Of a stretch of 64,000 bases of DNA, positions 10,979-64,000 are shown one piece after another. The translations under genes and the position numbers were made by a program. Location: positions 64,001 through 128,000 of the IMG/VR virus record IMGVR_UViG_3300010162_000393. One strand, given 5' to 3'. The notes below the pieces were generated by a model. The model did no database searches. It was not told where the DNA came from and saw nothing but the letters and a program-made list of their open reading frames with translations. Position 1 is the stretch's first letter, and every line of letters starts with the position of its first letter. This stretch comes from a virus. Lineage: Duplodnaviria > Caudoviricetes.

Positions 10979-11848
10979 TTATTTTTTAATGTACATTATT
11001 TCTTCAACCTCAACTTGTTTTCCATTTAATCTGGAATACGAACTGTTTTTCTTTTCTAAATTTACAATATTTACCCCATTTAATGAAATTTTATTTGCCT
11101 TATTTTCGCCCCTATCACCATCAAACGTTAATGCGTAATCACATTTTAGATTATTACAATATTCAATTAATTCATTTGTGTTTATTCCACCATGATACAT
11201 ACTCTTTTTCCCTTTGCTGTTTCCAACAGACGAATACGGAGGATCCATAAATACAAAATCATTATAATCTGGTATGAAATCTTTATAATCTCCACATAAG
11301 AATAACACATTATATTCATTCAATAATTCCGATGCTTTAATTATTATTTTTTTCATTTTATCAGGGTGAATACCGGGTCTGGTAAAATGACATGAAGAAT
11401 TGTAAACACCTGAACTATTGTATCTTACCAACCCAGAAAAGGAAGTTCTCAAAAGAAATAGAAAGTAAATAGAATTTGTTAAATTGGAGTGTAATTTACT
11501 GTTAAATTCATTCCTAATATAATTAAAATAAAATTTACGATGTCCTTCAATAGTTTCTTCTTGACGTTGTTTGAAATCTTTCCACAACCTTTCATATCCA
11601 CCTATCAATAAATTAGGTGTTCTTTTAATATAATTCCACAAGTGCATTAAATCTTCGTTGTTATCAACACAAATTATATTTTCATACTCACGAGCTTTAT
11701 CAGGATATTTTAATATTAGTTCTAATGTGATTGAACAACCACCACAGAACAATTCATAAAATTTACCTGTTTTTCCTTCTGGAAAATGTGATATTATTTG
11801 ATTTGCGAGAAGGCGTTTGCTTCCACTCCACTTAATCGGGTTTTCCAT
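10979..11848 (-). CDS. dam: Dam-like (D12 class) DNA adenine methyltransferase
   Basis: PIKWSGSK, ELFCGG, FSGLVRYN, FMDPPY. Confidence 0.88.
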   Translation of the reverse strand: MENPIKWSGSKRLLANQIISHFPEGKTGKFYELFCGGCSITLELILKYPDKAREYENIICVDNNEDLMHLWNYIKRTPNLLIGGYERLWKDFKQRQEETIEGHRKFYFNYIRNEFNSKLHSNLTNSIYFLFLLRTSFSGLVRYNSSGVYNSSCHFTRPGIHPDKMKKIIIKASELLNEYNVLFLCGDYKDFIPDYNDFVFMDPPYSSVGNSKGKKSMYHGGINTNELIEYCNNLKCDYALTFDGDRGENKANKISLNGVNIVNLEKKNSSYSRLNGKQVEVEEIMYIKK

Positions 11849-15616: not shown

Positions 15617-16867
15617 ATGCAAACATTCGTTAATGGTGGTAAAAACAATATAAACCCAACACGCGGAGATTTTCCGCGCAGTTATGGTGATACATGGAAA
15701 AAACTATTGACTCTTGAAGCATTTCTTGACCAAGCAAATAACCCAAAACTTATGTCTTTGGAAGATATAGATGCGAGTTTCAAGGAATGGGTTGAGCGTA
15801 ATTTAGAAATAACATATGCCGGACAACTTATACCAACACAATTTTTATTATCAATACAAAGATTAAGTGAGTTCGGAAAAAACTGGAAGATAACAAATAA
15901 TGAAGGGGAATTAATACTATCATTCAAAACAATATCCAGAGAATTGGCACCACAACAAGGTACAATGTATGATAAGATATATAACATACCTGGAGAACCA
16001 ACGTGGCCGGTATGTTATATACCTATTATTGAAAATGGTATTGAGGGATATGATGTTATTTCAATGAAACAACCAAACCAGGTTGATCTTAAATACACTG
16101 TATCTATTTTTAGTACTAAAATGGATACTGTTAATAAGTTTAATACATTGGTTATTGATAGATTCAAATCATTGCAAGCATATTTAAGGGTTAGGGATAC
16201 ATATTATGTTTCAATGGTATTAGAAAAGGTTAGCGATGAAACTAAAATGGAAATAGAAGAAAGGCGTTATTATGTTCAAAATTATGAAATACTTGTCAAA
16301 GCATATTTGTTACAAGAATCAGATTTTAAAAGAGAACGTCTTCAAAACAGAGTATTGGTTTCGGTTGATACGGAGGCAAAGTTTAAACCATGTGCTACAA
16401 TTATGGAAGATGATTGTTGTCCCGGTGCAATAGTTTTAACCATTGATTTTCCGCTTGAATCTAAAAGTTATGTAAAATTCAGAATAGACGAAAATGTATA
16501 TATTAAATCTGTTTCAAGTGATAATATTCGTTCATTTTCATTGAAACGAAATGATGAACCAGTACATAATGCCTGTGTTGGCGGATTTGATTTACGTGAA
16601 AATGATAGAGTAGAAATTCATTTTAAAAAATGGGATAATTATCTACCTGCAAGAATTAGATTTAGTGGTCAAATCGTTTGTTGTGAAGAACCAAAAAGCG
16701 TTTTTGATTGTACTATACCTGAAATAGAAGGTGAGGATATAATATTTGAGGAAGCTGATCCATGTATTTTACCAGAAATAGATAGTGATGAAATATCATT
16801 TGATTATATTGACCCATGTATTGTTCCGGAAATATTATCTAATTCAGTTTCTTTTGTATTATCGTGA
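15617..16867 (+). CDS. Putative tail completion / sheath-stabiliser (gp15-like) virion protein
   Basis: SLEDIDASFKEWV...P.QVDLKYTVSI pattern resembling tail-terminator proteins; CTATTTAT at 15593-15600. Confidence 0.5.
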   Translation: MQTFVNGGKNNINPTRGDFPRSYGDTWKKLLTLEAFLDQANNPKLMSLEDIDASFKEWVERNLEITYAGQLIPTQFLLSIQRLSEFGKNWKITNNEGELILSFKTISRELAPQQGTMYDKIYNIPGEPTWPVCYIPIIENGIEGYDVISMKQPNQVDLKYTVSIFSTKMDTVNKFNTLVIDRFKSLQAYLRVRDTYYVSMVLEKVSDETKMEIEERRYYVQNYEILVKAYLLQESDFKRERLQNRVLVSVDTEAKFKPCATIMEDDCCPGAIVLTIDFPLESKSYVKFRIDENVYIKSVSSDNIRSFSLKRNDEPVHNACVGGFDLRENDRVEIHFKKWDNYLPARIRFSGQIVCCEEPKSVFDCTIPEIEGEDIIFEEADPCILPEIDSDEISFDYIDPCIVPEILSNSVSFVLS

Positions 16868-19020
16868 ATCAGTTTATTTAACTTTTTCGTATACCCATAA
16901 TCAACCTTTTCATTTACACTTATCAGTTTACTAACATCTATATTTGAATATTTACGGATATATTCCTTTAATTTAGATTGAGATATGGATGTATGTTTAG
17001 TTAAATATTTACCGATTTGTAATAAAAGAGTTATGTGATTAGATAGTATTAAAATGGTGTTATCCATAATATTTCTCAACTCTTCATTTACATCTTGTTG
17101 GATAGTATAATTTTCATATTCCTTTAATAAAGTATCGTCATCAGATGCTAATGTTGTAACGCCTAAATTATATCTTAATCCATATTTTCTGTATGATTCA
17201 ACAATCAAAGAGGTTGCTTCTTCCAAGTCGTTAGATGCACCAACACTAACTAAAGCATCTTCAAAAACAATACTTTCTGCTGCCATACCGGCAAGTAAAA
17301 CACTAACCTTTTTAATTATAATTTCTTTATTTATAATACCATCTTCTTCTGATCCTTGAACTGTTATACCAATAGAAGTTGGGTCACTGGTAACAGATAG
17401 AACTTGTAGTGGGAGTTTGTTGAAAAGTGCAATAGACGCAACAGTATGTCCTGCTTCATGTACGGCAGTGAGGGTTTGTAAATCGTTTCCTTTGTTATTT
17501 CTCAAACTCTCTAAACGCAAATGAATTTTATGTTCGGTAGAGTCACATAAAACACCTTCCTTATAAAAATAAACTATTATTTTTTTATTCTTATACGAAT
17601 ATTCAATAGTATCACAATCTATGTTATTTGAACTTTTATATAATAATGTGTTTGCAAAATTAGATTTTATTAAGTCATTAATACCGGTTTGTAACGGTCT
17701 AACACCTAACACAGGAAATACATTCTCTTTGTACACAATAGTATGTATTGAATCATCATATTTCAAATTTACATTATATACTTCTTTAATATAATTTGAA
17801 TAATTATTAAGAATATTTTTAATAATAGTTTTATATGATTTTGAATCTAATGATGGGTAAATAATGAACGTATTACCTAACCTTGATACATGTTCTGCCC
17901 TGTATCTATTCATTAATGCCTCTTTTATTTCGACAATAGTGATTTTTTTAGATATTTTTGAAAATTCATCGGCAGATATATCAGCATTGAAGTCGGAGTG
18001 CATTCCGTGATACGCCTCATCAAGATTTAGTAGAACAAATATTAAACTTCGTTTATAATTTATTTGTGGTTTTTTTAATCCATCTATAATATCAGTACGA
18101 ATTGTAGTTAGAAAATCTATCATATCTCCTATTAACATTTCTGACATATCGTCATATAATCTATTAAGATCAATAATTTTATCTAAACCATACAATTTTA
18201 TGATATTACCAATTTCAGTAATAAATTCATGTTTGAATGTATATGTATAGTTGTTATTAATAGGGTTTGATTTAAGATTGAACACACCTAATAAATCTAA
18301 CATAACTTCATCAGATACTGTTACAACCATCTTGGTTTCGTTGGTTTCTACTAATATTGATTTGTTAACGTCTTTACAATTTTCGGCATAGTTATGAATA
18401 TCTTCAAGAAGTTTATATTCTTCTTCGGTTAGAGTAAATGATAAGTTTTTATATGTTCTGTTTTTCAAATACAAAATTGCCTTTAATACCCTAATAGCAG
18501 CAGACACACCATCATTATTATAACCGCTCTCAATTTTTCCCTCATATTTTAATAACCCGGTATCCATGAATAACCATAAACTGGAATTATATGAATCTAT
18601 TTCCCCATCTTTATCTTTTGCTTTATAGTTTTGAAACTCATCCAAAATAATTATTGGGTGGTCAATAAGTCTATTATGGTCATAAAGTAAAAACTTCAAT
18701 GGGGTTTCGCTATTTAATTCGGAACCATTAACAGTATGAGCATGAAATTCTAATCCTAATAAGGATATTAGTCTGTTAACCAGTGCTGTTTTACCACAGC
18801 CGGTTAATCCAACTAAATTAATTACTAATGGTTTTTCCAACGAATCTTTAAAAAACAACCATGGTTTAACAGCGTTGATTAACTCATCAATTTGTTTGTC
18901 AATGCCGATAAATTCAGATTTTAATACACCGGATATTTCTGTAAGTTGTTCACTTGTGGTTACTATTTCAAACTTTTTTTTACTATTAATAAAATCTTTA
19001 ATATCCTTTGTCTTTATCAT
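16804..19020 (-). CDS. Soluble AAA+ ATPase fused to an M41 (FtsH-type) metallopeptidase
   Basis: Walker A GLTGCGKT, Walker B ILDEF, Clp-like GVRPL; AVHEAGH, LAGMAAE, GASNDLE; no TM segments. Confidence 0.85.
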   Translation of the reverse strand: MIKTKDIKDFINSKKKFEIVTTSEQLTEISGVLKSEFIGIDKQIDELINAVKPWLFFKDSLEKPLVINLVGLTGCGKTALVNRLISLLGLEFHAHTVNGSELNSETPLKFLLYDHNRLIDHPIIILDEFQNYKAKDKDGEIDSYNSSLWLFMDTGLLKYEGKIESGYNNDGVSAAIRVLKAILYLKNRTYKNLSFTLTEEEYKLLEDIHNYAENCKDVNKSILVETNETKMVVTVSDEVMLDLLGVFNLKSNPINNNYTYTFKHEFITEIGNIIKLYGLDKIIDLNRLYDDMSEMLIGDMIDFLTTIRTDIIDGLKKPQINYKRSLIFVLLNLDEAYHGMHSDFNADISADEFSKISKKITIVEIKEALMNRYRAEHVSRLGNTFIIYPSLDSKSYKTIIKNILNNYSNYIKEVYNVNLKYDDSIHTIVYKENVFPVLGVRPLQTGINDLIKSNFANTLLYKSSNNIDCDTIEYSYKNKKIIVYFYKEGVLCDSTEHKIHLRLESLRNNKGNDLQTLTAVHEAGHTVASIALFNKLPLQVLSVTSDPTSIGITVQGSEEDGIINKEIIIKKVSVLLAGMAAESIVFEDALVSVGASNDLEEATSLIVESYRKYGLRYNLGVTTLASDDDTLLKEYENYTIQQDVNEELRNIMDNTILILSNHITLLLQIGKYLTKHTSISQSKLKEYIRKYSNIDVSKLISVNEKVDYGYTKKLNKLIHDNTKETELDNISGTIHGSI

Positions 19021-24739: not shown

Positions 24740-25792
24740 TTAATTATATAATTGATTTCTCATTTCAACTAAAACTCTTTCAATAAATTCAACATCCGGT
24801 GTTTCTTGTAATGTACATTTTTCGTATAGGATATCTATTTCTTCTATCATTGTTTTTGCACGACTTACCAAATCATCATATTCAGCATCACCACGACGTA
24901 TTGATAATAATTCTTCACGATTTGGAACACGAACAATTAGATTTCCATTAGATAATATTTCTTTGGATTGTTGTAACAACCTGATAGTATGACACATATT
25001 CTTAGCATCGTATCGTTTTCCATGTGACATAGTATTATTAAATCTTACTTCACTTCGTTTATCAACCCACTCCCAATATTCTTTATATTCTTTACAATAT
25101 GCTGAATATCCGTCTTTATTAAAATATAATCTATTATCTGGTGTTATCCATTTAGGTATAGAACTAAGAGCAACTTCATTAGCATCTGGACATGACATTA
25201 TTCCTCTGAATTTGTCTTTATAATAATACAAATCGTAAATGTCCTTCATATTATTTATGGAAGATAATCCACAATCTTCTTGTTTGTATCCGTAATTTGA
25301 CAACCATGTGTTAAGTGATACAGATCCGCCATTATCATTAAGAACATAACAAAAATCAAGTATATTTTTTCTTTCCTTATCCATTGGGTTTAGGATTTTT
25401 TTGTTCAACCCTCTCGCCTTTTTAATTTGAGATATGGCGTATCCGGCAAACGTGTTTTTACACAACTTTGATAAAAACATATCAACCGTAAGATTATCCA
25501 TAATATTATTTCGATACAATATACAATCTTCTGGTGTTGCTAACAATTCCAACATATTAGGATTGTTTTTTAATAATAGTTCAACGAATCTCCCAATCTC
25601 ATAATATACTTTGTCGTTTTTTTCGTCTTCTATTTGTTGGGTATAAGTCAAACCATATAACTTATCTTTTGGTAAATAAAAAACACCTCGAATATCTGTA
25701 TCCGATTCAGGGGTATCTATTCCATATGCTTTACTACCGCTGATACATTCAAACAGTAAAAGGTTATTTTTTTTTATGTATTCTATCGACAT
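24740..25792 (-). CDS. Nucleotidyltransferase (Nuc-transf / YcgL-like family)
   Basis: SGSKAYG..TPESDTDIRGV, NNPN.LELL, YDAKN..H.IRLL. Confidence 0.85.
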   Translation of the reverse strand: MSIEYIKKNNLLLFECISGSKAYGIDTPESDTDIRGVFYLPKDKLYGLTYTQQIEDEKNDKVYYEIGRFVELLLKNNPNMLELLATPEDCILYRNNIMDNLTVDMFLSKLCKNTFAGYAISQIKKARGLNKKILNPMDKERKNILDFCYVLNDNGGSVSLNTWLSNYGYKQEDCGLSSINNMKDIYDLYYYKDKFRGIMSCPDANEVALSSIPKWITPDNRLYFNKDGYSAYCKEYKEYWEWVDKRSEVRFNNTMSHGKRYDAKNMCHTIRLLQQSKEILSNGNLIVRVPNREELLSIRRGDAEYDDLVSRAKTMIEEIDILYEKCTLQETPDVEFIERVLVEMRNQLYN

Positions 25793-25806
25793 TTTTTGTT
25801 TAATAT

Positions 25807-26184
25807 TTGAAATATACTATATTCGATTATATTTTTGATATGAGTGGTTTTGTTTATCTAATACTTGAATGGGATAAAATTGAAGAAAACCTTGTCCCAA
25901 GTAAAATAGGTGTTACCAGAGGGTGTATTGAAAAACGTATCAAAAAACTCCAAACCGGAAATACCTCTAATCTACATCTCTTCACACATTTCAAATCTGA
26001 ACATCCGTTTAGGTTAGAAAAAATGTTACACAACCATTACCAAAAATATAAAACAAATGGTGAATGGTTTAACCTACCAAATGAAACTGTATTAGGATTC
26101 AAAACCATTTGTGAAGAAAAAGAAGAACTTATTAAATTTCTACTAAAAGAAAACCATTTTTTCGGAAAAAAAACAGGTTTCTAA
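25807..26184 (+). CDS. GIY-YIG superfamily (T5orf172/Mug113-like) nuclease
   Basis: GFVYLI, KIGVT, R.KKLQTGN, LE..LH, GEWF; start probably the internal Met at 25840. Confidence 0.8.
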   Translation: MKYTIFDYIFDMSGFVYLILEWDKIEENLVPSKIGVTRGCIEKRIKKLQTGNTSNLHLFTHFKSEHPFRLEKMLHNHYQKYKTNGEWFNLPNETVLGFKTICEEKEELIKFLLKENHFFGKKTGF

Positions 26185-26209
26185 TTTATGATTTTCCGCA
26201 AACATACCC

Positions 26210-27403
26210 CTAAAAGTTATTTGTTTTTAGAATTGACGCTTCAACGGGTTCGTAACCTCTTCCCTCCACGTCCACTACCCCCCACATCGGGGGTGATATA
26301 CCTATATTCCTTATGTTTATGGAAGCGTTAAAATCCCTGTCATGTAAAATGCTACACGAAGGACATATCCACTCCCTTACACGTAAATCCTTTACCTCAA
26401 CATTCTTATAACCACACCTGTTACACAACTGCGAGGAAGCAACAAACCTACCAATCTTGATAAGATTCTTACCTTGCCACTCACTTTTGTATCCCAACTG
26501 CCGTACAAACTCACTCCAACTTACCGACTGAATACTTCGCGCAAGTTTGTGGTTTTTGACCATTCCGCTTACGTTCAAATCCTCAATACAAATGGTGTCG
26601 TAATTATCCAACAAATACGTGGACAAATTATGCAACCAATGGTTTCGTTGAAATGTGATTTTTTGGTGAATTTTTGCAACCTTCAACCTTTGCTTTTCTC
26701 TACGATGACTTCCTTTTTGTCTTCGACACAACACCTTTTGGGCGTGTGCTAAACGTAAATGAGTCTTTTCAAGAAATTTTGGGTTTCCAAAACATTCACC
26801 ATTTGAGGTAACAGCAAATTCCTTAATTCCCAAGTCAATACCTATGGTTTTATTAGAATCTTCCACTTTGGTTTTCGGTGGAATTGGTTCTAGCGTATCG
26901 CATAGGATACTTACGAAATAATAACCTGCCTGTGTTTTTGATACTGTCATAGACTTGATTTTTCCTTTTGGGAGTCTTGACAATATCACTACTATATTTC
27001 CACATTTTCCTAATCTTACGGTGGATTTCTCCACGTTCAGGTTGAAACAATCTGGAAATGTACAAGTTTGTTTGTTACATTTTTTCTTATAATTTGGGTA
27101 TCCTGCTGGTTTCCCTTGTTTTACATTTCTGAAAAAATTGTTGTATGCTGAATCGACGTTGTTCAGAGTAACGTTCAGGGTATGTGCGGTGGTGTCTTTC
27201 AACCATTCATGTTCTAACGTTAATTCGTTTCGCAACATTTTTCCCAAATCGAAAGAAGATAATGACTTCTTTTCAGTTTCCCACAACGTTTTCTTTTTGT
27301 TCACTGCCCAATTATAGATAAACCGAGAACAACCAAAATGTTGTGCAAGGGCAACTTTTTGGTTATCGGTTGGGTATATTCTATATTTGAACGCCTTTAA
27401 CAT
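26210..27403 (-). CDS. tnpB: TnpB RNA-guided endonuclease (IS200/IS605 OrfB family)
   Basis: HTH MLKAFKYRIYP; RuvC D-E-D intact (GIDLG, IEDL, DRDFNA); Zn finger CNRC..CPSC. Confidence 0.95.
   Translation of the reverse strand: MLKAFKYRIYPTDNQKVALAQHFGCSRFIYNWAVNKKKTLWETEKKSLSSFDLGKMLRNELTLEHEWLKDTTAHTLNVTLNNVDSAYNNFFRNVKQGKPAGYPNYKKKCNKQTCTFPDCFNLNVEKSTVRLGKCGNIVVILSRLPKGKIKSMTVSKTQAGYYFVSILCDTLEPIPPKTKVEDSNKTIGIDLGIKEFAVTSNGECFGNPKFLEKTHLRLAHAQKVLCRRQKGSHRREKQRLKVAKIHQKITFQRNHWLHNLSTYLLDNYDTICIEDLNVSGMVKNHKLARSIQSVSWSEFVRQLGYKSEWQGKNLIKIGRFVASSQLCNRCGYKNVEVKDLRVREWICPSCSILHDRDFNASINIRNIGISPPMWGVVDVEGRGYEPVEASILKTNNF
26213..26300 (-). ncRNA. Putative omega-RNA 3' scaffold plus guide overlapping the tnpB 3' end (5' boundary unknown)
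   Basis: GC-rich hairpin CACCCCC-GATGT-GGGGGG and ...GAAGCGTCAA end (TCAA at 26233-26236) followed by 20 nt before the TIR. Confidence 0.5.
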
Positions 27404-27457
27404 ATTTCAAATTTACACTTTTTATACGATAGGGGTATTATTGCGGAAAATCATTTT

Positions 27458-28531
27458 CTAATTTCTGTAAAACAAAACATCATCCGCCTCAATTGGATAT
27501 GGAAAATCCATTTCCTTCATCATATTCATAATGGTATTAGGATGTACTTGTCCTTCCCTTCTATCAATATGGTTTTGTTTTGTGGTTTCATGATATTCAA
27601 TTGTTATGTGAGGATTATATGGGGATACCATTTGAATGAATTCGTCACGGTATTTTTTTCTTATAAAAAGATTATCTGAAACAAAGTTTTGTCTTCGTTC
27701 ACATAATTCTATTATCTGTTTATGTTCAACATGTGTCACCTTGTCTTCCTGAATTTTGTTCCCCTTTAATTTTCCACCATGTTCAACCATACCTAATTCC
27801 GCTCTAATAATGTCGCGTGATATTAGTTCAAACCCAAATTGTTTATATCGTCTTTCATATGCCGTTGTTTTTCCACCACCAGCAACTCCGCATAAAATTG
27901 TAATATAAAAACCAGATTCTTCTTTTGTTTCAATTTTTGGTTCGCAATTCCAAACACCTAATTGTTTAGCATAATCTTTTAATGTTTCGCAATGTTGAAT
28001 TTCATTTTCTTTATCAATGGATATTGCACCCATTACATCAAACAGATTAAGATAATATAACAAACGACAATCTGAATTGCGTGATATGTTGGTTACATTT
28101 TTTTCAATATCTTCCATTTTGAAACGCAAATATTTTGGTTTCATGTGGTGTTTTATCAACGAACATATTTTCTCTCTCAAAGGTAGTGGTTCATCCCACA
28201 ACATAAATCGTGTCAATCGCTCTCCTTCAATAGCATGATATGCTGCTGACCAGTTACCATCTTCTTTTAGTTTTGCAACTTTTCCTTTACCAATATCATG
28301 AAATAATGAGGCGGAAACCAAAACCAATTTTTCAAAATCTGAAAATTCTTTTGGATTTTGTTTCAAATAATCTTGACACGCTTTTACCACCATTTTGGTA
28401 TGTACCATTGTACTACCCTCCTGATGCCATTCACTATGATATCCACCTTCATTGAGACGTTGAAATTCTGGTATTTCTTCTACCAAGTTCCAATTAACCT
28501 TTGTATTACCAATTATTAATCTATCTAACAT
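27458..28531 (-). CDS. HD-domain phosphohydrolase fused to an AAA_33 polynucleotide-kinase-like domain
   Basis: HQEG..HT, LFHDIGK, HHM, D; C-terminal GVAGGGKT...SRDIIR. Confidence 0.82.
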   Translation of the reverse strand: MLDRLIIGNTKVNWNLVEEIPEFQRLNEGGYHSEWHQEGSTMVHTKMVVKACQDYLKQNPKEFSDFEKLVLVSASLFHDIGKGKVAKLKEDGNWSAAYHAIEGERLTRFMLWDEPLPLREKICSLIKHHMKPKYLRFKMEDIEKNVTNISRNSDCRLLYYLNLFDVMGAISIDKENEIQHCETLKDYAKQLGVWNCEPKIETKEESGFYITILCGVAGGGKTTAYERRYKQFGFELISRDIIRAELGMVEHGGKLKGNKIQEDKVTHVEHKQIIELCERRQNFVSDNLFIRKKYRDEFIQMVSPYNPHITIEYHETTKQNHIDRREGQVHPNTIMNMMKEMDFPYPIEADDVLFYRN

Positions 28532-28668
28532 TTTTTCAATTTTTTAAAACAAAACGTTATAATTATCAAAAACGAAATAACAACAATAGCAACAGCACAC
28601 AATTCTACCAAATATGACCAAGACGCTTGCGATTGCCACCATTTTTCATCAAACATTAAATTCCACAT
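28525..28668 (-). CDS. 47-aa membrane microprotein (not in ORF track)
   Basis: MWNLMFDEKWW...LCAVAIVVISFLIIITFCFKKLKKC; single TM helix plus basic tail; overlaps the next start. Confidence 0.5.
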   Translation of the reverse strand: MWNLMFDEKWWQSQASWSYLVELCAVAIVVISFLIIITFCFKKLKKC

Positions 28669-28709
28669 ACTTTTTTATTAAATTTTTTACAAAACAATAA
28701 AAAAGCAAA

Positions 28710-29234
28710 CTAATTTTCTGATCGCACTTCTGGACCACCTTGACAAACGTAAATGAACTTACTATCATCATTGACAACATCCAAAAACTCATCTATCATT
28801 CTTTCGTTTGTTTCATCAAACGGTTTAGTGGAATAACTTCCAAACATTTCATTGAAGTCGAATTTGTTGGATTCTTTTGTTTTAGAAGTAAAAATATATT
28901 TATCTCCCATTACAACACCGTCGAATGGGATTTTTGATATAATGTAGTTGATTGCTTTATCTACATTTCCAACGTTTTTTTCAACACCTTCTATTTCATT
29001 TGTGAAATTATTCGCGTATAATAACAATAAACACGATTTTTCTGACGTTGTGTACGCTCTCCATTGTTTCAATTCACCAATGATAGAATTTACCCTGATG
29101 TGTTGTTCATAGAAAATACTCGGATGTAATATGTTATCACAAGATAATATACATCCCTCAAATTTCTTTTTTATTTTTATTCTGTGTATAAAACTACTAC
29201 TCTGTTCGGTAGAGGTTATTTTCTTTTTTTTCAT
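28710..29234 (-). CDS. Hypothetical protein
   Basis: 174-aa ORF. Confidence 0.6.
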   Translation of the reverse strand: MKKKKITSTEQSSSFIHRIKIKKKFEGCILSCDNILHPSIFYEQHIRVNSIIGELKQWRAYTTSEKSCLLLLYANNFTNEIEGVEKNVGNVDKAINYIISKIPFDGVVMGDKYIFTSKTKESNKFDFNEMFGSYSTKPFDETNERMIDEFLDVVNDDSKFIYVCQGGPEVRSEN

Positions 29235-29248
29235 ATTATTAAAATTTT

Positions 29249-29884
29249 CTAAATTACTAATTCATTGAAAATAAGGTCTTTTGGTAATACACCTCTACAA
29301 ATAAAAATAGAAGCAAAGTGGTTTGTCATACCTATCTCTTCCCATCTTTTTTCTCTTGTGCTGTATGGTATTCTTTTATCAAATATCAATACTTGTGTAT
29401 CCCCTTTTGAAAAAACATCGTTGAAACGTCCAATTGATTGAAGTGTTGGTAATGGTAATAAGAGCGCATACGGAATATCTAAACAATAACAATGTTTTAA
29501 TATTTCGTTTTTTAAAGAAAATGGTGGGTTAGATATTATATAATCAATACCTAATTGACACATATCTTCTTTTGTATAACTGAAAAAATCTTTTCCTTCA
29601 CCGGTTTCAGGATCAAAGTGTGTGTTAATCACATCAAATCCTAACTCATTAAATACTTTCGGAAAAGCATGTTCATCCTTATCAAATGGACATAATATTT
29701 TTGTTTTTTTTGTTATTGCTTTATAGTCTCCTAATTCTGGAGTATCTTTAAAAATCATAAGTTTACATCCAAAAGTTTCTTTTGGAACATACTTCGCGAT
29801 GTTGTGAACAACAAATTCCGGTGTAAAACAATTATCACTTTCCGGAGTTTTTTTTGATGTTAAATATCCTATATTACGTGCCAT
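29249..29884 (-). CDS. Putative DNA adenine methyltransferase
   Basis: FTP, ILCPFD, DFF, IISNPPFS, ALLLP. Confidence 0.75.
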   Translation of the reverse strand: MARNIGYLTSKKTPESDNCFTPEFVVHNIAKYVPKETFGCKLMIFKDTPELGDYKAITKKTKILCPFDKDEHAFPKVFNELGFDVINTHFDPETGEGKDFFSYTKEDMCQLGIDYIISNPPFSLKNEILKHCYCLDIPYALLLPLPTLQSIGRFNDVFSKGDTQVLIFDKRIPYSTREKRWEEIGMTNHFASIFICRGVLPKDLIFNELVI

Positions 29885-29885
29885 A

Positions 29886-30374
29886 TTATTCTTTATTTAA
29901 AATTTTAATTGCGTTTTCTACGTCTGCTTCGTCAATACCATCCAATGGGTGCGTATTAATGAAATATGGTATTTGTTCTTTCAGAAAATCTATATCGTCA
30001 TCAAGAATAACATAATTACCATCAAAATGGTTATCATCAATCCACTTCTTAACTTCAACACCGCGTATTCTTGTTTTAAACTTTCCATCTTCACCTTCAT
30101 AATAAAGTCTTTCGGTTACACCAATAATCCTATCACAAAATGGAAATTTCATACCATTCATATAAAATTCAGTATCATCTGAAAGATATTCAATAGTTTT
30201 TTCAAGGGTGTGTTTACGCCATGATGATGAGATTACTAAACAGCAGTCGGTAGCATCTATAATTTTACCGAGTAAATCCAATTTATCTTTATTTAATTTG
30301 AATCTACTATCACAATTTGTGATTACACCATCAAAATCAAGAAATAAAATTTTCTTTCTGTTCATCTCTAACAA
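29886..30374 (-). CDS. HAD phosphatase (HAD_SAK_2, RNA-repair Swiss-army-knife type)
   Basis: FLDFDGV, ISSSWR, RG.EV..W, YVILDDD. Confidence 0.82.
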   Translation of the reverse strand: MLEMNRKKILFLDFDGVITNCDSRFKLNKDKLDLLGKIIDATDCCLVISSSWRKHTLEKTIEYLSDDTEFYMNGMKFPFCDRIIGVTERLYYEGEDGKFKTRIRGVEVKKWIDDNHFDGNYVILDDDIDFLKEQIPYFINTHPLDGIDEADVENAIKILNKE

Positions 30375-41596: not shown

Positions 41597-43582
41597 ATGA
41601 TTAATAATTTTTTAGAAAGTGGTCTGGTTGGTAATATTGCATGGAACCAGGTCTCTGAACAAAGGAAAAAGATATCTGAAACTTGGGAAAAACTTGGTTT
41701 TACCGAAAACTTGCAAGGTGTTTTGAAAGAAAATATTTCGATGTTGTATGAAAATACAGCTCGTGCTCTTATTCACGAAGCAACAGATGCTACAAACTCC
41801 GGTTCTTTCGTAACCGTTGTATTTCCGCTTATTAGACGTGTATTCAGCAAATTACTTGCTAATGACATCGTTTCTATTCAGGCGTTGAATTTACCTATTG
41901 GTAAATTGTTCTATATTAAACCCGTTACCTCTGAAAGAGAATGGGAAAACCTCGATGGTGATGGTAATGTATTATCCGGTAGCAACGCAAAACATACTGG
42001 TTTAATGGGTTACAATAGACATGATCGTAATTTTCAAAATCCGGGCAAAGCAGTTTTTGATCCTCTAACCAATACGTTTAGTGGACAAAAACAAGGTTTA
42101 TACAACAACCGTTTTTATCTTCCTGATGAAGTTATCACAGGTACACCAAGTAACGAAAAACCGATACCAACTTGGCAAACTCTCGACGCTGATAACACTT
42201 TTCCTGCTGATCCTACAAATCTTGATGATCGTAACAAACCAGTCGTAACTCGTTATATGCAGACTTCTCTGTATGATTTGTTCTATGACGAATTCTTGTA
42301 TGACCACTCAAAAGGACGTGCTTGGGTTAAAATTTCCGATATGGTAGAAGTTGTTCAATTGAATAACAAAAGAACTTTTGATCTTCTTGCTCCCGGTGCT
42401 GATTTTATTGAATCTCGTGAAGATGGTTCAATCCGAAACGCTATTTTGAAAATCAAAGGTTTTAACAACTACAACGCAGGTCTGTTAATTGGTCCTGACG
42501 GAGACGAAATGGATACCGAAACTTTCCTTGCTTCGTTGAAAGTAATTACTAAAAACGCTATTGCTGATACCAGTGCTAGTGGTTATTCGGAATTTAAAGA
42601 AAATGAAAATCTTCCTATCAGGTTGTTGCCACAAAAGTATGGTAAAGCTATCGTAGAAAGAGATAATTTCTGCGGTGCTGACGGTACAATGTATGTTGAA
42701 GTAGACTTCAAAAAACCTACCGTTAATCATGGTATAACCGTTGATGGTTATATTGGTATTGACCCGGCTAATAAAGTTGGTGATGTTGAATTCTACGTAT
42801 GTTGGATACAATATGATAGTCTTGAACTTGAAACCGAAATCGGTGAAGTATCTTTCCAAATTGACAGTGTTACCATTGCAGTTGAAGAACGTAAATTGAG
42901 AAGCACATGGTCGCCTGAACAGGCACAAGACGTTGCTGCTTTCCATAACATTGACGCAGAAGCAGAACTTACCAGCCTTTTGGCACAACAAGTTTCTGTT
43001 GAAATTGACCGTGAAATTCTCCGCGACCTTAAAACCGCTGCTCCTTGGCAACTGAGCTGGGACTTCAACGGTTGGAGACGTACTGCTACAACAAGTACTA
43101 ACTACACACAGAAGGATTGGAATCAGGAACTGATTACGAAAATTAATCAAATTTCCGCACAGATTAACAAGACTTGTTTAATGGGTGGTGCTAACTTCAT
43201 CGTTGTTTCTCCGGAAATCAGTGCAGTTTTCGATAACCTTGAATACTTCCACGCTACTAACGCCGCTCCTGGTGAAGAGGAATACTCTTTGGGTATGGAA
43301 AAAGTTGGTAATTTGAGTGGTCGTTATCAAGTGTATGTAGACCCTTATTCACGCCATTGGACGCTTTTGGTTGGACACAAAGGAAAAAGTATGTTGGACA
43401 CAGGTTACATATATGCTCCGTATGTGCCTCTGCAGCTGACACCAACTCTATTTAATCCGTTTAACGCTGCGCCTGTAAAATTTATAATGACGCGCTACGC
43501 AAAGAAAGTTGTTAATAACAAATTCTATGGATTGGTAAAGGTTCATGGTTTAACTACTTGGGATACCAACGAATTGAGATAA
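41597..43582 (+). CDS. gp23: Major capsid protein (T4 gp23-like)
   Basis: PLIRRVF..LLANDIVSIQ, RKLRSTWSPEQAQD...DAEAELTSLL...EIDREIL, GYIYAPYVPL, MTRYA. Confidence 0.95.
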   Translation: MINNFLESGLVGNIAWNQVSEQRKKISETWEKLGFTENLQGVLKENISMLYENTARALIHEATDATNSGSFVTVVFPLIRRVFSKLLANDIVSIQALNLPIGKLFYIKPVTSEREWENLDGDGNVLSGSNAKHTGLMGYNRHDRNFQNPGKAVFDPLTNTFSGQKQGLYNNRFYLPDEVITGTPSNEKPIPTWQTLDADNTFPADPTNLDDRNKPVVTRYMQTSLYDLFYDEFLYDHSKGRAWVKISDMVEVVQLNNKRTFDLLAPGADFIESREDGSIRNAILKIKGFNNYNAGLLIGPDGDEMDTETFLASLKVITKNAIADTSASGYSEFKENENLPIRLLPQKYGKAIVERDNFCGADGTMYVEVDFKKPTVNHGITVDGYIGIDPANKVGDVEFYVCWIQYDSLELETEIGEVSFQIDSVTIAVEERKLRSTWSPEQAQDVAAFHNIDAEAELTSLLAQQVSVEIDREILRDLKTAAPWQLSWDFNGWRRTATTSTNYTQKDWNQELITKINQISAQINKTCLMGGANFIVVSPEISAVFDNLEYFHATNAAPGEEEYSLGMEKVGNLSGRYQVYVDPYSRHWTLLVGHKGKSMLDTGYIYAPYVPLQLTPTLFNPFNAAPVKFIMTRYAKKVVNNKFYGLVKVHGLTTWDTNELR

Positions 43583-60800: not shown

Positions 60801-62065
60801 ATGCGCGGAAAAAACAAAACGTTAGAAGAGGTTATTAAAATAGCAAAAGAAATTCATGGAGACAAATATGATTATTCGATTACCGAGTATAAAGGTTCTA
60901 AAAAAAACATGTCTATAATTTGTAAAAAACACGGATGTTTTGAACAAAGAGCGTCTTCTCATTTAAAAGGAAATGGTTGTCCACAGTGTGGTGGATAGAT
61001 GAGTGGATTGAAAAGGCAAAAACTATACATGGTAATAAATATGATTATTCTATTGTTGATTATAACGGTTCTTATCAAAATGTTTCTATAATTTGTTCGA
61101 TTCACGGTGTTTTTACTCAAAAAGCATATAAACATTTATCTGGGCGCGGATGTCAAAAATGTGTTAATAAGTATCGACCAACAACAGATGAGTGGGTTGA
61201 AAGAGCAAAAAACGTACATGGTGATAAATATGATTATTCAAAAACTATTTATGTTAATGCTAGAAAAAAAGTTCTTATAATTTGTTCTGAACACGGAGAA
61301 TTTTGGCAAACCCCATATGATCATTTAAATGGATGTGGGTGCTTGAGTTGTAGTGGGAAAAATATGTTAACAATAGATGAATTTATAAAAATCGCAAATA
61401 AAACACATGGTTGTAAATATGATTATTCAAATGTAAAATATAATAATTCTCAACAAAAGGTGTCTATTATTTGTCCAAAACATGGGGAATTTTTACAAAT
61501 ACCTGTTCATCATTTAAGAGGTAGTGGTTGCCCAAAATGTGCTGGTAAAAATTTAACAACAGAAGAATGGGTTGTAAAAGTAAAAGATGTTCATAAAAAT
61601 AAATATGATTATTCAAAAACAAAATATGTTAATGTTAAAACTAAAATTTGTATTGTTTGTTCAAAACATGGGGAATTTTGGAAAACACCTAGTGAACATT
61701 TATCAGGGCAAGGTTGTCCAAATTGTAACTCTTCAAAAATGGAAAATATTGTTGTTAGATTTTTGGAAACACGCGGTGTTTTACATGAGAGAAGATATAG
61801 AGGGTTTGAGTGGTTAAAAAATGAGAAAAAACTCGAATTAGATTTTTATTTACCAGAACACAATATTGCGATTGAATGTCAAGGGGTACAACATTTTAAA
61901 CCGATTGATTGTTGGGGTGGTGATAAATCTTTAGATTATATTCAAAAAAACGATAAATTAAAAAAACGCTTGTGTGATGATTATAATATCCCTCTTTACT
62001 ACATAAATTACAACGACAATATCGAAGAAAAGTTAAATGATATTTTTACTAATATTTTAAAATAA
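60801..62065 (+). pseudogene. Repeat-rich (DUF723-like) PD-(D/E)XK homing endonuclease, frameshifted after the first repeat
   Basis: 5x HG.KYDYS..Y....IIC..HG.F...HL.G.GC..C; ELDFY...IECQG.QH; frame break at about 60996. Confidence 0.7.
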
Positions 62066-62091
62066 AAAAACCCCAAGTTTAAAACTTGGGG
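62063..62091. terminator. Intrinsic terminator (strong T-tract on the - strand)
   Basis: CCCCAAGTT-taa-AACTTGGGG with an adjacent A7 run on the + strand. Confidence 0.8.
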
Positions 62092-62109
62092 ATAAAGAAT
62101 TACTTGAAA

Positions 62110-62370
62110 AAAAGACTTGCGGTCGCGATAAGTATGAGTGCGATTCTTTCCGCTTTAAAAATTTCTTTCACTCTTTTTTGCGAGTCGGGGAAGTCCCCAA
62201 CGAACATTGTTGGTAAGAGGAACTTACATTTAGTCTTTTAAAAAACAAGCGGTTTGTAAGCGAATATTAACCATTATCAATGTAGGAACAAAACTATGCT
62301 TGTTTATCGGTAAAAAGCGGTAACTACAAACTCGTTCATGTAACGTGGATAGGAAGTTACTTTGCTTTTT
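62110..62370 (-). ncRNA. Array of three related structured RNA-like units
   Basis: Each unit: terminal stem, A(A/T)A bulge, second stem, TTCCT, variable loop, CCGC, closing stem; promoter-like CGTATATTTA at 62377-62386 and a terminator downstream. Confidence 0.55.
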
Positions 62371-62388
62371 ATATTATAAATATACGAT

Positions 62389-63999
62389 TTATTCAAATAA
62401 TTTCAAAATATCATCTTTGGATAATATTTTATCTTTTGAATAGGTCATATTTACATTTGCTTTTTTAAGAACATCGTCAATGGTAAGATAATGTTCATGT
62501 GATGAAGTGAATATATCTAATATTATTCCATTGATATTATCAATACTTGAAACACGTTTTTTTGACGACTGCATATTTGCAAACACAAATTTGTTTTCAA
62601 AAAATGTTCCGATTATTTTTTCACCTTCAATAATATCATCATATTGATATATGATGTTATCCGGGTTTACCATATAATTTTTGAAACCTATTATTGTTTT
62701 TACATTTTCTTTTGCGAAGAAAACCTTATATTTTGCTTTCCCTTCTGTTGGAAAATCAGATGTTTCGCGTTTTTCTCTAACAAAACAATATGGATTAACC
62801 CTAACACTACCTACTGTTTGTGCTAAATTACTTTTTTTGTAAAGTAGTTCGCTTGCGCCATTTGGGGCGGTAGTCATATCACCGGAATATATAAATGTTT
62901 TTTCCTCATTATAATAACATGTATTCCATCCTATTTTCATTCCGGATTTATCTATGTATGATAAATCAAGATCTCGTGCACCATCCTTTTCATGCCAATA
63001 TATTCCAATAATTGTGTCTTCAAAATCCAAATCAACCCATGAATATAAAGGAATTTCACCCATAAACGATTTTTCGGAAGTTGGACAAACGAGATTTATA
63101 TTTAACGGTAACTCAACAACATTTGTTCCAACGTTGTCTTTTACTTTTTTCACAATATGACCTATCAATGTGTTTTTTAGAGAAATTAGTCTATGTACGG
63201 TTTTAGGTGTTATTTCCGATTTATTACTATTATCTTTCACAAACATTTTTCCATTTCTAACAAAATATATGTTGTGTTTCAATGTGCTATTCAATTTAAT
63301 GTTAATCAAATTGTATAACGATATCATTTTATATGTTGTTAGATTTTCAATAGAATTATTTATTGATTCAAATATAAATTCATCCAAAGAACTATCCGGA
63401 GAATTTATTACTGAAATAACCTTTGTCCAAAACGGTGCATTGAATGGAGTATGATTTGTTCTTGCCATTCTTCTGATTTTGTTTATCTTGTATTGATTTT
63501 GTTTCTTCAATGCAAGGAACAATGGTTTGAATCTGAAAAATATTTGAGAAAATCTTTCAAGTAGAATATTAGGAATAATAACATTACTGTTTTTCAAGGT
63601 TTCAATTGTTTTTTTGTCTTTGATTAACATTGTTTTTCCAGTTACTTGATAGATAAAACACCTTAATGCGCTTTCAGGATTGGTTGGATATATACCCATA
63701 TTAACCGCTATGATTGCTTGCGCTTCCCTGTTTTTTACCTTGTCAATATCAACACAGTCGCCAAGAACATCTAAAATGTTTTCAATAGTGGTTTGTTTCA
63801 ACGCCACACCAGAATATAACATGTTCTGGCAGCGCGTTATTGCTTCATCAAAAGGAATACCTTTGATAAATTTTACATTCATTGATTTCAAGTCAATCGG
63901 AGTGTTATTTACAATAAATGGTTGTTCCAACTCTAATGTGTACGAAGTAAAATAATGGAGAATTTGATCCATAAACAATTCAAAACGTGTTCGAGAAGT
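62389..63999 (-). CDS. Large helical protein with a TerD-like C-terminal domain (possibly TROVE/Ro-like), 5'-partial
   Basis: DQILHYF, IF.RFKPLFLALK, IN.IRR.A...H, GIYW, DLDLS, IGWN, YSGDMTTAPNGASE; frame open to the window end. Confidence 0.6.
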   Translation of the reverse strand, partial: TSRTRFELFMDQILHYFTSYTLELEQPFIVNNTPIDLKSMNVKFIKGIPFDEAITRCQNMLYSGVALKQTTIENILDVLGDCVDIDKVKNREAQAIIAVNMGIYPTNPESALRCFIYQVTGKTMLIKDKKTIETLKNSNVIIPNILLERFSQIFFRFKPLFLALKKQNQYKINKIRRMARTNHTPFNAPFWTKVISVINSPDSSLDEFIFESINNSIENLTTYKMISLYNLINIKLNSTLKHNIYFVRNGKMFVKDNSNKSEITPKTVHRLISLKNTLIGHIVKKVKDNVGTNVVELPLNINLVCPTSEKSFMGEIPLYSWVDLDFEDTIIGIYWHEKDGARDLDLSYIDKSGMKIGWNTCYYNEEKTFIYSGDMTTAPNGASELLYKKSNLAQTVGSVRVNPYCFVREKRETSDFPTEGKAKYKVFFAKENVKTIIGFKNYMVNPDNIIYQYDDIIEGEKIIGTFFENKFVFANMQSSKKRVSSIDNINGIILDIFTSSHEHYLTIDDVLKKANVNMTYSKDKILSKDDILKLFE

Positions 64000-64000
64000 T

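What the first reader, a model, noticed from the sequence alone, without database searches (positions are those of the whole stretch)
62063..63999. Array of three structured RNA units behind a TerD-like-domain protein: candidate Ro60/Y-RNA-like RNP
Seen on the - strand: unit A (62370-62312) AAAAAGC-AAA-GTAAC-TTCCT...AGTTAC-C-GCTTTTT; unit B (62305-62243) AAACAAGC-ATA-GTTTTG-TTCCT...ACAAAC-C-GCTTGTTT; unit C (62239-62110) AAAAGACT-AAA-TGTAAG-TTCCT...CCGC-AAGTCTTTT with a large loop containing extra hairpins. Stem sequences differ between units but pairing is kept, while the 3-nt A(A/T)A bulge, TTCCT and CCGC are conserved (unit C fits less neatly). The array has a promoter-like CGTATATTTA (62377-62386), a terminator (62063-62091) and no ORF. 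It follows a >530-aa helical + TerD-like protein. Known: Ro60/TROVE proteins bind Y RNAs at a bulged terminal helix, are encoded next to them and associate with RNA-repair genes. This window also has HD-Pnk, HAD_SAK_2 and nucleotidyltransferase genes. Inference: a phage protein-ncRNA system with conserved handles and variable loops (decoys or guides).
Basis: partly seen in the sequence, partly recalled or inferred. Interest (0 to 1): 0.82.

Follow-up and report, generated by a model that had tools for sequence, protein, structure and literature searches.

The report
Phage handle RNAs with TerD-fold partner
Three small folded RNAs behind an uncharacterised 607-residue phage gene belong to a widespread RNA family, found in no catalogue searched, that nearly always lies next to this same protein family, often among tRNA genes, so the pair is probably an undescribed RNA-protein particle organised like, but not detectably related to, Ro60 with its Y RNAs.

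Summary
Units A (62312-62370) and B (62243-62305), minus strand, fit one RNA design: outer stem S1, 3-nt AWA bulge, 5-bp stem S2, invariant UUCCU, variable loop, UA, S2', bulged C, S1'. Unit C (62110-62239) keeps this handle but has a 99-nt interior and an extra 3' insertion.

A covariance model finds 264 more units beside homologues of the upstream gene in viral, MAG and metagenome contigs. All lie on the gene's strand and flank the gene. 134 of 169 loci have at least one; many of the rest are cut contigs. Stems covary heavily. Rfam 15 has no match.

The partner is a 607-aa protein: a helical N-domain with no clear fold match and a TerD-fold C-domain (Z 9.7). It has no Pfam, PHROG, NCBIfam or PADLOC hit. 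The family has about 1,400 clusters at 50% identity.

Every test for TROVE/Ro60 or Y-RNA membership failed. The resemblance is organisational: adjacent small RNAs, T-arm-like cargo, tRNA arrays and RNA-repair genes in this phage.

Best reading: a handle-binding RNA-protein particle acting on tRNA or RNA damage. Binding and function are inferred, not shown.

This scan had already flagged the same pair in at least eight other genomes, and I found no paper describing it.

The parts
62389..64000 (-). Partner protein gene. It is 607 aa in full, and the first 71 codons lie beyond the window end (G000:C1:126389-128212). Residues 1-~365 form a helical N-domain and ~390-570 a TerD-fold beta sandwich.
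   Evidence: ORF and translation. AF2 model: pLDDT 85, pTM 0.83. TerD fold: Foldseek 3ibz prob 1.0, E 2.5e-4; VIA Z 9.7 to 2qz7_B and 9.0 to 2kxt. No Pfam, PHROG, NCBIfam, PDB-sequence or PADLOC hit. At least 521 homologues and 1411 representatives at 50% identity.
62379..62406 (-). Promoter-like element between the stop codon and unit A: TTGAAA-16-TATATT, overlapping CGTATATTTATAATAT.
   Evidence: Consensus scan, 10 of 12 matches, not above chance for this AT-rich region. A similar GTGTATATTTATAGTAT precedes the first unit in L003, and TATTTATATTGAAATAATTAT precedes the arrays in the 40-46% identity clade. Function is inferred.
62312..62370 (-). Unit A, a canonical handle RNA of 59 nt. S1 is 7-8 bp, the bulge is AAA, S2 is GTAAC/GTTAC, followed by UUCCU and a 26-nt loop.
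   Evidence: Sequence. Fold. R1 scores 43.2 bits, but this unit was in the training set. Its terminal S2 pair is C-G instead of G-C, a compensatory swap also seen in L026 and L056.
62243..62305 (-). Unit B, a canonical handle RNA of 63 nt. S1 is 8 bp, the bulge is AUA, S2 is GTTT(T)G/CAAAC with one inserted U, followed by UUCCU and a 27-nt loop.
   Evidence: R1 scores 37.3 bits, but this unit was in the training set.
62110..62239 (-). Unit C, an enlarged and divergent handle RNA of 130 nt. S1 is AAAAGAC/GTCTTTT, the 5' bulge is UAAAU, S2 is GUAAG paired with CUUAU, and UUCCU and AUA-CUUAU-C-G are kept. It also has a 99-nt interior with hairpins and a 10-nt insertion (GCGACCGCAA) before S1'.
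   Evidence: Sequence. Fold z-score -3.15. Only one homologue was found, in L003. The two-sequence consensus keeps S1 and a 3' hairpin GYGG..UMGC/GCKA-CCRC with three compensatory pairs. S2' lies in that hairpin's loop, so S2 would form a pseudoknot or not form at all. R1 does not detect the unit.
62061..62091 (-). Intrinsic terminator closing the array. It also backs onto the convergent HNH endonuclease gene.
   Evidence: 9-bp stem with 5 G-C pairs, then a T7 run. L003 has a stem plus T-run at the same place with a different stem sequence.

Best explanation
The 62063-62388 region encodes three small non-coding RNAs: two canonical units and one enlarged unit. They belong to a widespread, uncatalogued family of 'handle RNAs'.

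Each RNA closes with a variable outer stem (S1). Next comes a constant asymmetric internal loop, AWA opposite a single C. A 5-bp stem (S2) follows, capped by invariant UUCCU on the 5' side and UA on the 3' side. Inside is a free loop of 25-110 nt.

The RNAs are made on the same strand as the upstream 607-aa gene. They come either by read-through or from a small promoter after its stop codon, and transcription ends at the terminator at 62071-62091.

I infer that the protein (helical N-domain plus TerD-fold domain) binds the constant handle and forms an RNA-protein particle that displays the variable loop or cargo.

Three observations bear on function. Extra copies sit inside phage tRNA arrays. 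About a third of long-loop units carry a T-arm-like hairpin. This phage also carries RNA-repair genes: an Rnl2-like ligase, HD-Pnk, RlaP and HAD_SAK_2.

The most likely job is therefore surveillance, protection or repair of tRNA-like RNAs during infection. That would be analogous to, but evolved independently of, Ro60 with Y RNAs.

Shown: the RNA family, its structure, and its genomic lock to the protein. Inferred: physical binding, processing into separate units, and the tRNA-related function.
For: RNA family and structure:
- A 57-unit alignment shows compensatory changes in all 11 pairs.
- An independent set of 79 units from MAG and metagenome loci is 99.1% paired, with compensatory changes in 10 of 11 pairs. 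Its covariation score is 0.745, against 0.22 when shuffled and at most 0.21 when slid.

Lock to the protein gene:
- Model R1 gives 150, 59 and 55 hits at E <= 0.01 in three collections of homologue loci. All 264 are on the gene strand and lie just upstream or downstream of the gene.
- Units occur in 62 of 75 viral loci, 45 of 50 MAG loci and 27 of 44 metagenome loci, 134 of 169 in all. Many of the metagenome contigs without a unit end at or inside the gene.
- In 150 Bacteroidales genomes the RNA and the protein each occur once, in the same genome, 19 nt apart.
- Bacterial flanks are unrelated housekeeping genes, so the RNA is the only constant neighbour.
- In the clade nearest this phage, arrays of 2-3 units follow the stop codon, as they do here.

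Link to tRNA:
- Orphan units in whole jumbo-phage genomes lie inside tRNA arrays, on the same strand and 2-10 nt from tRNAs.
- 24 of 75 phage loci have tRNAs within 3 kb, and all 165 are on the gene strand.
- 13 of 44 long-loop units contain a T-arm-like hairpin, against 0.02 expected.

Context in this phage: RlaP, HD+AAA_33 and HAD_SAK_2 are in the window and an Rnl2-like ligase is on the contig.

The protein's conserved residues include many Arg and Lys: R184, K198, R227, K229, R247, R319, K322 and K381.
Against: - No binding, expression or processing data exist. Adjacency alone does not prove a complex.
- The training units were picked with a rule that demanded pairing, and the independent alignment was fitted to the model. 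Both paired percentages therefore lean high.
- This phage contig holds no tRNA gene, but it is only 38% complete.
- Unit C of this window has no T-arm. Its hairpin ends in an ACUU tetraloop.
- 35 of the 169 homologue loci show no unit. Many lack a flank, but not all do.
- No RNA-binding fold is recognisable in the protein.
- TerD domains are known as Ca2+-binding stress proteins, not RNA binders.
- RtcB, reported as a neighbour by earlier notes, was not among the flanks I sampled in six bacterial loci, nor on this contig.
Confidence: 0.6

Rival explanations
1. The units are cis-acting operator or leader elements. The protein binds them on its own mRNA only to control its own translation or stability, and they have no independent role as RNAs.
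For: The units always lie on the gene strand and touch the gene. In most loci they sit in the 5' leader, 20-500 nt before the start codon.
Against: - In this window and its whole clade the units lie after the stop codon and before the terminator.
- Orphan units lie up to hundreds of kb from the gene, inside tRNA arrays.
- Arrays have up to 6 units with different loops and tRNA-like inserts. An operator does not need these.
Confidence: 0.1
2. The pair is a very diverged true homologue of Ro60 (TROVE) with Y RNAs, with the vWA domain replaced by a TerD domain.
For: - The layout is the same: a helical N-domain of about 360 aa followed by a second domain.
- The small RNAs are adjacent and on the same strand, and some carry a T-arm as YrlA does (PMC4201824).
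- D. radiodurans Rsr appears at rank 7 of the Foldseek list for the N-domain.
Against: - The Rsr match is not significant: E 0.5, prob 0.20, TM 0.21, rmsd 19 A.
- Rsr is not among the top 50 rows of the wide structural search.
- Pfam TROVE hits none of 36 members.
- hhalign against a real TROVE protein gives probability 0.1%.
- The handle lacks GNCGAAN0-1G / GGUCCGA.
- The Rfam Y RNA and YrlA models do not hit.
- R1 finds no unit next to two TROVE genes.
Confidence: 0.05
3. The RNAs are guides. The protein is an RNA-modifying or RNA-cutting enzyme, and the variable loops base-pair with its targets, as in snoRNPs or CRISPR effectors.
For: - The units combine a constant handle with a hypervariable loop and occur in arrays of several different units.
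- The N-domain has conserved polar residues that could be catalytic: D82, H86, E163 and H254.
Against: - Loops are no more complementary to the neighbouring phage tRNAs than shuffled loops. The mean longest antisense run is 6.43 against 6.39.
- The loops of units A and B have no significant match on either strand of the 137-kb contig. The best is 16 of 17 at E 0.03.
- Many loops hold their own hairpins or T-arms rather than open sequence.
- Host targets could not be tested.
Confidence: 0.1
4. The pair is a toxin-antitoxin-like or defence / counter-defence module. The protein is an effector held in check, or triggered, by its tandem RNAs, as in type III ToxIN.
For: - In bacteria it is a self-contained two-part module, rare (1 of 150 Bacteroidales) and set among unrelated genes.
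- Tandem RNA units sit directly before the gene on the same strand, as in ToxI-ToxN.
Against: - The units are not near-identical direct repeats. They differ in stems and loops.
- The protein is 600 aa and shows no ToxN/AbiE-like or other PADLOC family.
- Orphan copies in tRNA arrays and T-arm cargo are not explained.
Confidence: 0.1
5. The units are chance hairpins, terminators or a mobile repeat with no specific function.
For: The DNA is AT-rich and folds easily. Unit B's fold z-score is only -1.35.
Against: - All 264 model hits are on the gene strand and next to the gene.
- Control 5-mers give 4-26 gene-strand sites against 124 for TTCCT.
- UUCCU, the bulge and the 3' C are invariant across phages, bacteria and an archaeal MAG.
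Confidence: 0.01

Closest known systems
Ro60 / Rsr (TROVE + vWA) with bacterial and phage Y RNAs YrlA/YrlB (Chen et al. 2014, PMC4201824), including the Salmonella rsr-yrlBA-rtcBA operon
   Same: - A two-domain protein of 550-600 aa with a helical N-part is encoded next to one to several small structured RNAs on the same strand.
- Each RNA closes with a long terminal stem carrying a conserved bulged protein-binding site.
- At least some RNAs carry a tRNA-like T-arm.
- The pair is linked to RNA-repair genes, and it occurs in both bacteria and phages.
   Different: - No sequence, profile or significant fold similarity to TROVE was found.
- The second domain is TerD-fold, not vWA.
- The handle is AWA/C + UUCCU, not GNCGAAN0-1G.
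- Rfam's Y RNA and YrlA models do not match.
- Units are embedded directly in tRNA arrays.
- Binding has not been shown.
TerD family (tellurite-resistance / Ca2+-binding stress proteins; PDB 2qz7, 3ibz, 2kxt)
   Same: The C-domain has the same beta-sandwich fold: Z 9.7 and 9.0 over 136 aligned residues, and Foldseek prob 1.0. By my own reading of the sequence, TerD-like motifs are kept: GIxW, DLDLS and SGDxT.
   Different: - Pfam TerD does not detect it even at E 10.
- Most acidic Ca2+-site residues of the GDN..GDDE motif appear to be lost. This rests on my knowledge of TerD and was not tested.
- The domain is fused to a 360-aa helical domain and paired with RNAs. It does not sit in a ter operon.
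tRNA acceptor/T-arm minihelix and tRNA-like small RNAs in phage tRNA clusters
   Same: - Units sit in tRNA arrays with tRNA-like spacing.
- S2 is 5 bp ending in G-C followed by UUC, like a T-stem entering a T-loop.
- Long units carry true T-arm-like hairpins.
   Different: - ARAGORN and Rfam's tRNA model do not call the units.
- S1 length varies from 5 to 15 bp.
- The loop is 25-110 nt rather than 7.
- There is no anticodon arm or D-arm.
Type III toxin-antitoxin systems (ToxI RNA repeats + ToxN)
   Same: Tandem small RNA units lie immediately beside a protein gene on the same strand, as an autonomous two-part module.
   Different: The units are not identical repeats. The protein is four times larger and has no known toxin fold or PADLOC match. 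The module also has a tRNA-array context.

Membership tests
Ro60 / TROVE protein family | Sequence match to the TROVE domain (Pfam PF05731) | tested here: not met
   No TROVE hit at E <= 1 in any of 36 family members or at E <= 10 in P0002. hhalign of the family profile against a real TROVE protein (L183, 67.5 bits to PF05731) gives probability 0.1%. The same TROVE search does find D. radiodurans and B. thetaiotaomicron.
Ro60 / TROVE protein family | HEAT-repeat ring fold of the N-terminal domain | tested here: inconclusive
   The N-domain model has pLDDT 83.5. Foldseek lists Rsr 2nvo only at E 0.5, prob 0.20, TM 0.21, rmsd 19 A. In the wide search the top Z of 8.3 covers only residues 259-365 and matches generic helical hairpins. 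The fold is helical, but a ring is not shown.
Ro60 / TROVE protein family | C-terminal von Willebrand A domain with a MIDAS site | tested here: not met
   The C-domain is a TerD-type beta sandwich: Z 9.7 to 2qz7_B and 9.0 to 2kxt, and Foldseek prob 1.0 to 3ibz. No vWA family appears in Pfam.
Y RNA / YrlA-YrlB | Ro-binding motif GNCGAAN0-1G (bacteria) or GGUCCGA (animals) in the terminal stem | tested here: not met
   The motif is defined in PMC4201824. The handle consensus here is ..GC-AWA-GNNNG-UUCCU...UA-CNNNC-C-GC.., and neither motif is present in units A-C.
Y RNA / YrlA-YrlB | Match to the Rfam covariance models (Y_RNA, YrlA) | tested here: not met
   No such hit at the gathering score in the window or in 13 loci, nor at E <= 10 over 61800-62600.
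Y RNA / YrlA-YrlB | Encoded next to the partner protein on the same strand, with a tRNA-like module in at least one RNA | tested here: met
   264 of 264 units lie on the gene strand beside the gene. A T-arm-like hairpin occurs in 13 of 44 long units. This feature is organisational and does not show kinship. Unit C of this window has no T-arm.
Y RNA / YrlA-YrlB | Physical binding of the RNA by the partner protein | not testable with these tools
   This needs RIP, EMSA or a structure. The complex predictor offered here takes proteins and small ligands only.
TerD domain family | TerD beta-sandwich fold | tested here: met
   VIA-align gives Z 9.7 (rmsd 3.1, 136 of 169 residues) to 2qz7_B and Z 9.0 to 2kxt, with the next row at 4.7. 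Foldseek gives E 2.5e-4, prob 1.0 to 3ibz.
TerD domain family | Sequence match to Pfam TerD (PF02342) | tested here: not met
   No Pfam hit at E <= 10 or in 36 members at E <= 1. No PDB sequence hit with the profile.
tRNA | Cloverleaf recognised by ARAGORN or Rfam RF00005 | tested here: not met
   ARAGORN finds 0 genes in the window and in the contig. RF00005 hits the neighbouring tRNAs in other loci but never the units.
Type III toxin-antitoxin (ToxIN-like) or other known defence system | Protein matches a known defence or toxin family, and the RNA is a near-identical tandem repeat | tested here: not met
   PADLOC gives 0 families for 6 members. The units differ in stems and loops.

The most novel reading that the evidence does not exclude
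A new class of RNA-protein particle, unrelated to Ro60. A helical + TerD-fold protein grips a universal RNA 'handle' and displays interchangeable cargo, including tRNA-like arms. Huge phages (and a few bacteria) would use it to shield, monitor or repair the tRNA pool when hosts attack tRNAs. The tandem units would be made and released together with phage tRNAs.
Probability: 0.35. Interest if true: 0.9.

Novelty: categorically new. Interest (0 to 1): 0.8.

Why it matters
If the pair is a particle, three things follow.

- It adds a second, independently evolved solution to the Ro60/Y-RNA problem: a protein that uses small adaptor RNAs with tRNA-like modules.
- It gives a first function to a protein family of about 1,400 clusters at 50% identity that is common in huge phages.
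- It explains unannotated gaps inside phage tRNA arrays.

It would also be the first RNA-linked role for a TerD-fold domain.

The handle is short, constant and portable. It is therefore easy to test with EMSA and mutants, and it could serve as a tagging or display scaffold.

For phage biology, it bears on how jumbo phages cope with host defences that cut or deplete tRNAs.

Tried and rejected
- Rfam at the gathering score (window and 13 loci) and at E <= 10 over the region gave only terminator-like noise, tRNAs and one Hatchet ribozyme.
- ARAGORN called no tRNA in the window or the contig.
- The 'phages' nucleotide collection gave no match. A single-protein scan of viral contigs found nothing until a family alignment was used.
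- A first generic stem scan was too noisy in AT-rich DNA and was dropped.
- More unit C homologues were sought with blastn over all loci and a pattern scan of viral contigs. Only L003 was found.
The metagenome loci for two of them end at the gene, so their arrays are not seen.
- A loop-to-tRNA antisense test and a loop-versus-own-contig search gave nothing above chance.
- Fold searches of the N-domain (Foldseek PDB, VIA wide) showed no clear fold. Ro60 and TROVE were absent from the wide list and insignificant in Foldseek.
- The ESM Atlas returned only its own unnamed, mostly viral clusters.
- Longer family members (669-837 aa) have no informative fused domain.
- PADLOC gave no hit.
- The ClpX-like neighbour is not conserved in any other locus.
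- RtcB was not found on this contig or among the 20 flanking genes sampled in six bacterial loci. Those six loci do include one Rnl1-like ligase (L091) and one sigma-54 activator (L093).
- Complex prediction was not used. It cannot take RNA, and two copies of the protein exceed its size limit.


Full report
**1. What is in the sequence**

The window is bases 64001-128000 of a 136,864-bp IMG/VR viral contig that CheckV rates 38% complete. That implies a jumbo phage. It has a T4-type Gp23 capsid gene.

On the minus strand an ORF runs from beyond the window end to a stop at 62389-62391. In full it is 607 aa (P0002).

After the stop come, in order:
- an AT-rich promoter-like stretch,
- unit A (62370-62312),
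- 6 nt of spacer,
- unit B (62305-62243),
- 3 nt of spacer,
- unit C (62239-62110),
- a strong intrinsic terminator at 62091-62071 followed by T7.

No minus-strand ORF of 50 aa or more lies in this stretch. A convergent HNH/homing endonuclease gene (60977-62065, plus strand) ends at the terminator.

**2. The units are a real RNA family**

Downstream of the 65%-identical homologue in a complete 367-kb phage (L003) I found one canonical unit and a unit C homologue. The stems differ in sequence but still pair.

I then applied a rule-based scan to 75 viral loci that encode homologues. The rule was S1 of at least 5 bp, a 3-nt bulge, a 5-bp S2, a TTCCT core, and a 1-nt 3' bulge. It gave:
- 124 sites on the gene strand and 12 on the other strand;
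- 100 of the 124 within 1.5 kb before the start codon;
- only 4-26 gene-strand sites for nine control 5-mers.

Aligned units (A2, 57 sequences) give this consensus: S1 ending in GC, then AWA, GNNNG, UUCCUAU, a variable stretch, AWUA, CNNNC, C, and GC beginning S1'. T15-T19 (UUCCU), the A before S2' and the bulged C are invariant.

All 11 pairs show compensatory changes. That figure is partly circular, because the rule demanded pairing.

I therefore built covariance model R1 and searched sets it had not seen:
- 50 MAG loci gave 59 hits, in 45 loci.
- 44 metagenome loci gave 55 hits, in 27 loci.
- The 75 viral loci gave 150 hits, in 62 loci.

All 264 hits lie on the gene strand, just before or just after the gene and never inside it. 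In all, 134 of 169 loci have at least one unit. Many of the loci without a unit are short contigs that end at or inside the gene.

An alignment of 79 independent units is 99.1% paired, with compensatory changes in 10 of 11 pairs. Its covariation score is 0.745, against 0.22 when shuffled and at most 0.21 when the partners are slid. That alignment is fitted to the model, so it leans that way. The strand and position result does not depend on any fitting.

In the window itself, with filters off, R1 finds only units A and B.

**3. Unit C**

R1 misses unit C. Even so, it keeps every handle element:
- S1 is AAAAGAC paired with GTCTTTT.
- The bulge begins UAA, as in the nearest clade.
- S2 is GUAAG, followed by UUCCU.
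- On the 3' side it reads AUA-CUUAU-C-G.

It differs in three ways. The 5' bulge is 5 nt. The interior is 99 nt. A 10-nt insertion (GCGACCGCAA) lies between the bulged C and S1'.

Only L003 has a homologue. The two-sequence consensus supports S1 and a 3' hairpin, GYGG..UMGC/GCKA-CCRC, with three compensatory pairs.

S2' lies in that hairpin's loop. S2 would therefore form a pseudoknot or not form at all.

The central hairpin in L003 is GGUGG-UUCUAAA-CCACC, which is close to a T-arm. In this window it is UUGGGG-ACUU-CCCCGA, which is not.

I read unit C as a derived, cargo-bearing member of the family, with moderate confidence.

**4. The protein**

P0002 has no hit in Pfam, PHROGs, NCBIfam, PADLOC or PDB sequences. 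This holds for the single protein and for the family profile.

The family is large. At least 521 homologues were found. A profile search with the N-domain returns 1,411 representatives at 50% identity, nearly all 580-650 aa, so the two domains travel together.

The AF2 model is confident: pLDDT 85, pTM 0.83.

Residues ~390-570 are a TerD-type beta sandwich. VIA gives Z 9.7 to 2qz7_B and 9.0 to 2kxt, with the next row at 4.7. Foldseek gives prob 1.0 to 3ibz.

The N-domain (1-365) was modelled alone at pLDDT 83.5. It has no significant match. Foldseek's best is E 0.18. The wide search tops out at Z 8.3, and only on a helical hairpin at residues 259-365.

**5. Is it Ro60 with Y RNA?**

By layout it resembles that pair. 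By descent there is no evidence.
- TROVE is not detected in any of 36 members.
- hhalign against a real TROVE protein gives 0.1%.
- Rsr appears in the Foldseek list only at E 0.5, TM 0.21.
- The second domain is TerD-fold, not vWA.
- The handle lacks the Ro-binding motif defined by Chen et al. 2014.
- Rfam's Y RNA and YrlA models do not match.
- R1 finds nothing beside two TROVE genes.
- This contig and four of five bacterial carriers have no TROVE gene.

**6. Context and clues to function**

Whole jumbo-phage genomes hold extra units far from the gene. Those I checked lie inside tRNA arrays, on the tRNA strand and 2-10 nt from tRNAs. One example is Cys-unit-unit-Met in one phage and Cys-unit-Met in another.

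24 of 75 phage loci have tRNAs within 3 kb of the gene, and all 165 are on its strand. Thirteen of 44 long-loop units contain a canonical T-arm-like hairpin, against 0.02 expected.

In bacterial MAG chromosomes the pair sits among unrelated housekeeping genes such as H+-PPase, iPGM, cytochrome bd and TyrRS. Its only constant neighbour is the RNA.

In 150 Bacteroidales genomes the RNA and the protein each occur once. They are in the same genome, 19 nt apart.

This phage has no tRNA on the 137 kb available. It does encode RNA-repair parts: RlaP, HD+AAA_33 (Pnk-like) and HAD_SAK_2 in the window, and an Rnl2-like ligase upstream of it. It has no RtcB.

**7. Mechanism**

I commit to this reading: the protein recognises the constant handle and carries the variable loop or cargo as an RNA-protein particle acting on tRNA-like RNAs. 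Confidence is about 0.6 for the particle and about 0.35 for the tRNA-related role.

The tight tandem spacing and the tRNA-array embedding suggest that the units are released from a precursor, as tRNAs are. This is inference.

Rival readings:
- A cis-operator role alone does not fit the downstream arrays and the orphan units.
- A guide role got no support from a limited test.
- A toxin-antitoxin-like role got no support from PADLOC.

**8. Novelty**

I found no paper with this pair. The jumbo-phage survey by Iyer et al. (PMC7824862) mentions ROT/TROVE and TerD only as separate items.

Earlier notes of this scan describe the same pair in at least eight other genomes. I reached the same reading before seeing them.

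Here I checked their leads myself:
- tRNA-like cargo was confirmed.
- Bacterial occurrence was confirmed.
- RtcB linkage was not seen in my sample.

Noticed in passing
window 24740-30374 (-): An RNA-repair gene cluster: an RlaP nucleotidyltransferase (24740-25792), an HD + AAA_33 Pnk-like protein (27458-28531) and a HAD_SAK_2 protein (29886-30374). An IS605 OrfB/TnpB-like gene (26210-27403) is inserted between the first two.
   Followed up: partly
G000:C1:21640-22278 (-), outside the window: An Rnl2-type RNA ligase domain (PF09414, E 4.6e-9) in a 449-aa frame. No RtcB or Rnl1 match was found on the contig.
   Followed up: partly
window 60977-62065 (+): An HNH/homing endonuclease (phrog_559, E 7.6e-82; DUF723 and a treble-clef zinc finger). 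It converges on the RNA array and shares its terminator.
   Followed up: no
L001:3756-4907 (-), just beyond the window end; window 16804-19020 (-): A ClpX-like AAA+ unfoldase lies directly upstream of the partner gene (NCBIfam ClpX, E 1e-124). An FtsH-like AAA+/M41 protease is elsewhere in the window. The ClpX neighbourhood is not conserved in any other locus.
   Followed up: partly
L016:460-597 (+): A Hatchet ribozyme (Rfam RF02678, 81 bits) lies about 1 kb upstream of the handle-RNA array of another phage.
   Followed up: no
L080, L081, L083, L084 (whole jumbo phage genomes G004, G005): Handle-RNA units are interleaved with tRNA genes 2-10 nt apart. The order Cys-unit(s)-Met recurs in two different phages.
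   Followed up: partly
L087 (Methanobacterium MAG contig, 170 kb): The protein, two units and eight same-strand tRNAs occur on a contig binned as an archaeon. It may be a virus or provirus of a methanogen.
   Followed up: no
window 41597-43582 (+); 10979-11848 (-); 10048-10722 (-): A T4-type Gp23 major capsid protein, a Dam-type N6-adenine methyltransferase and a dUTPase/dCTP-deaminase-like gene. All are ordinary for a large myovirus-like phage.
   Followed up: no
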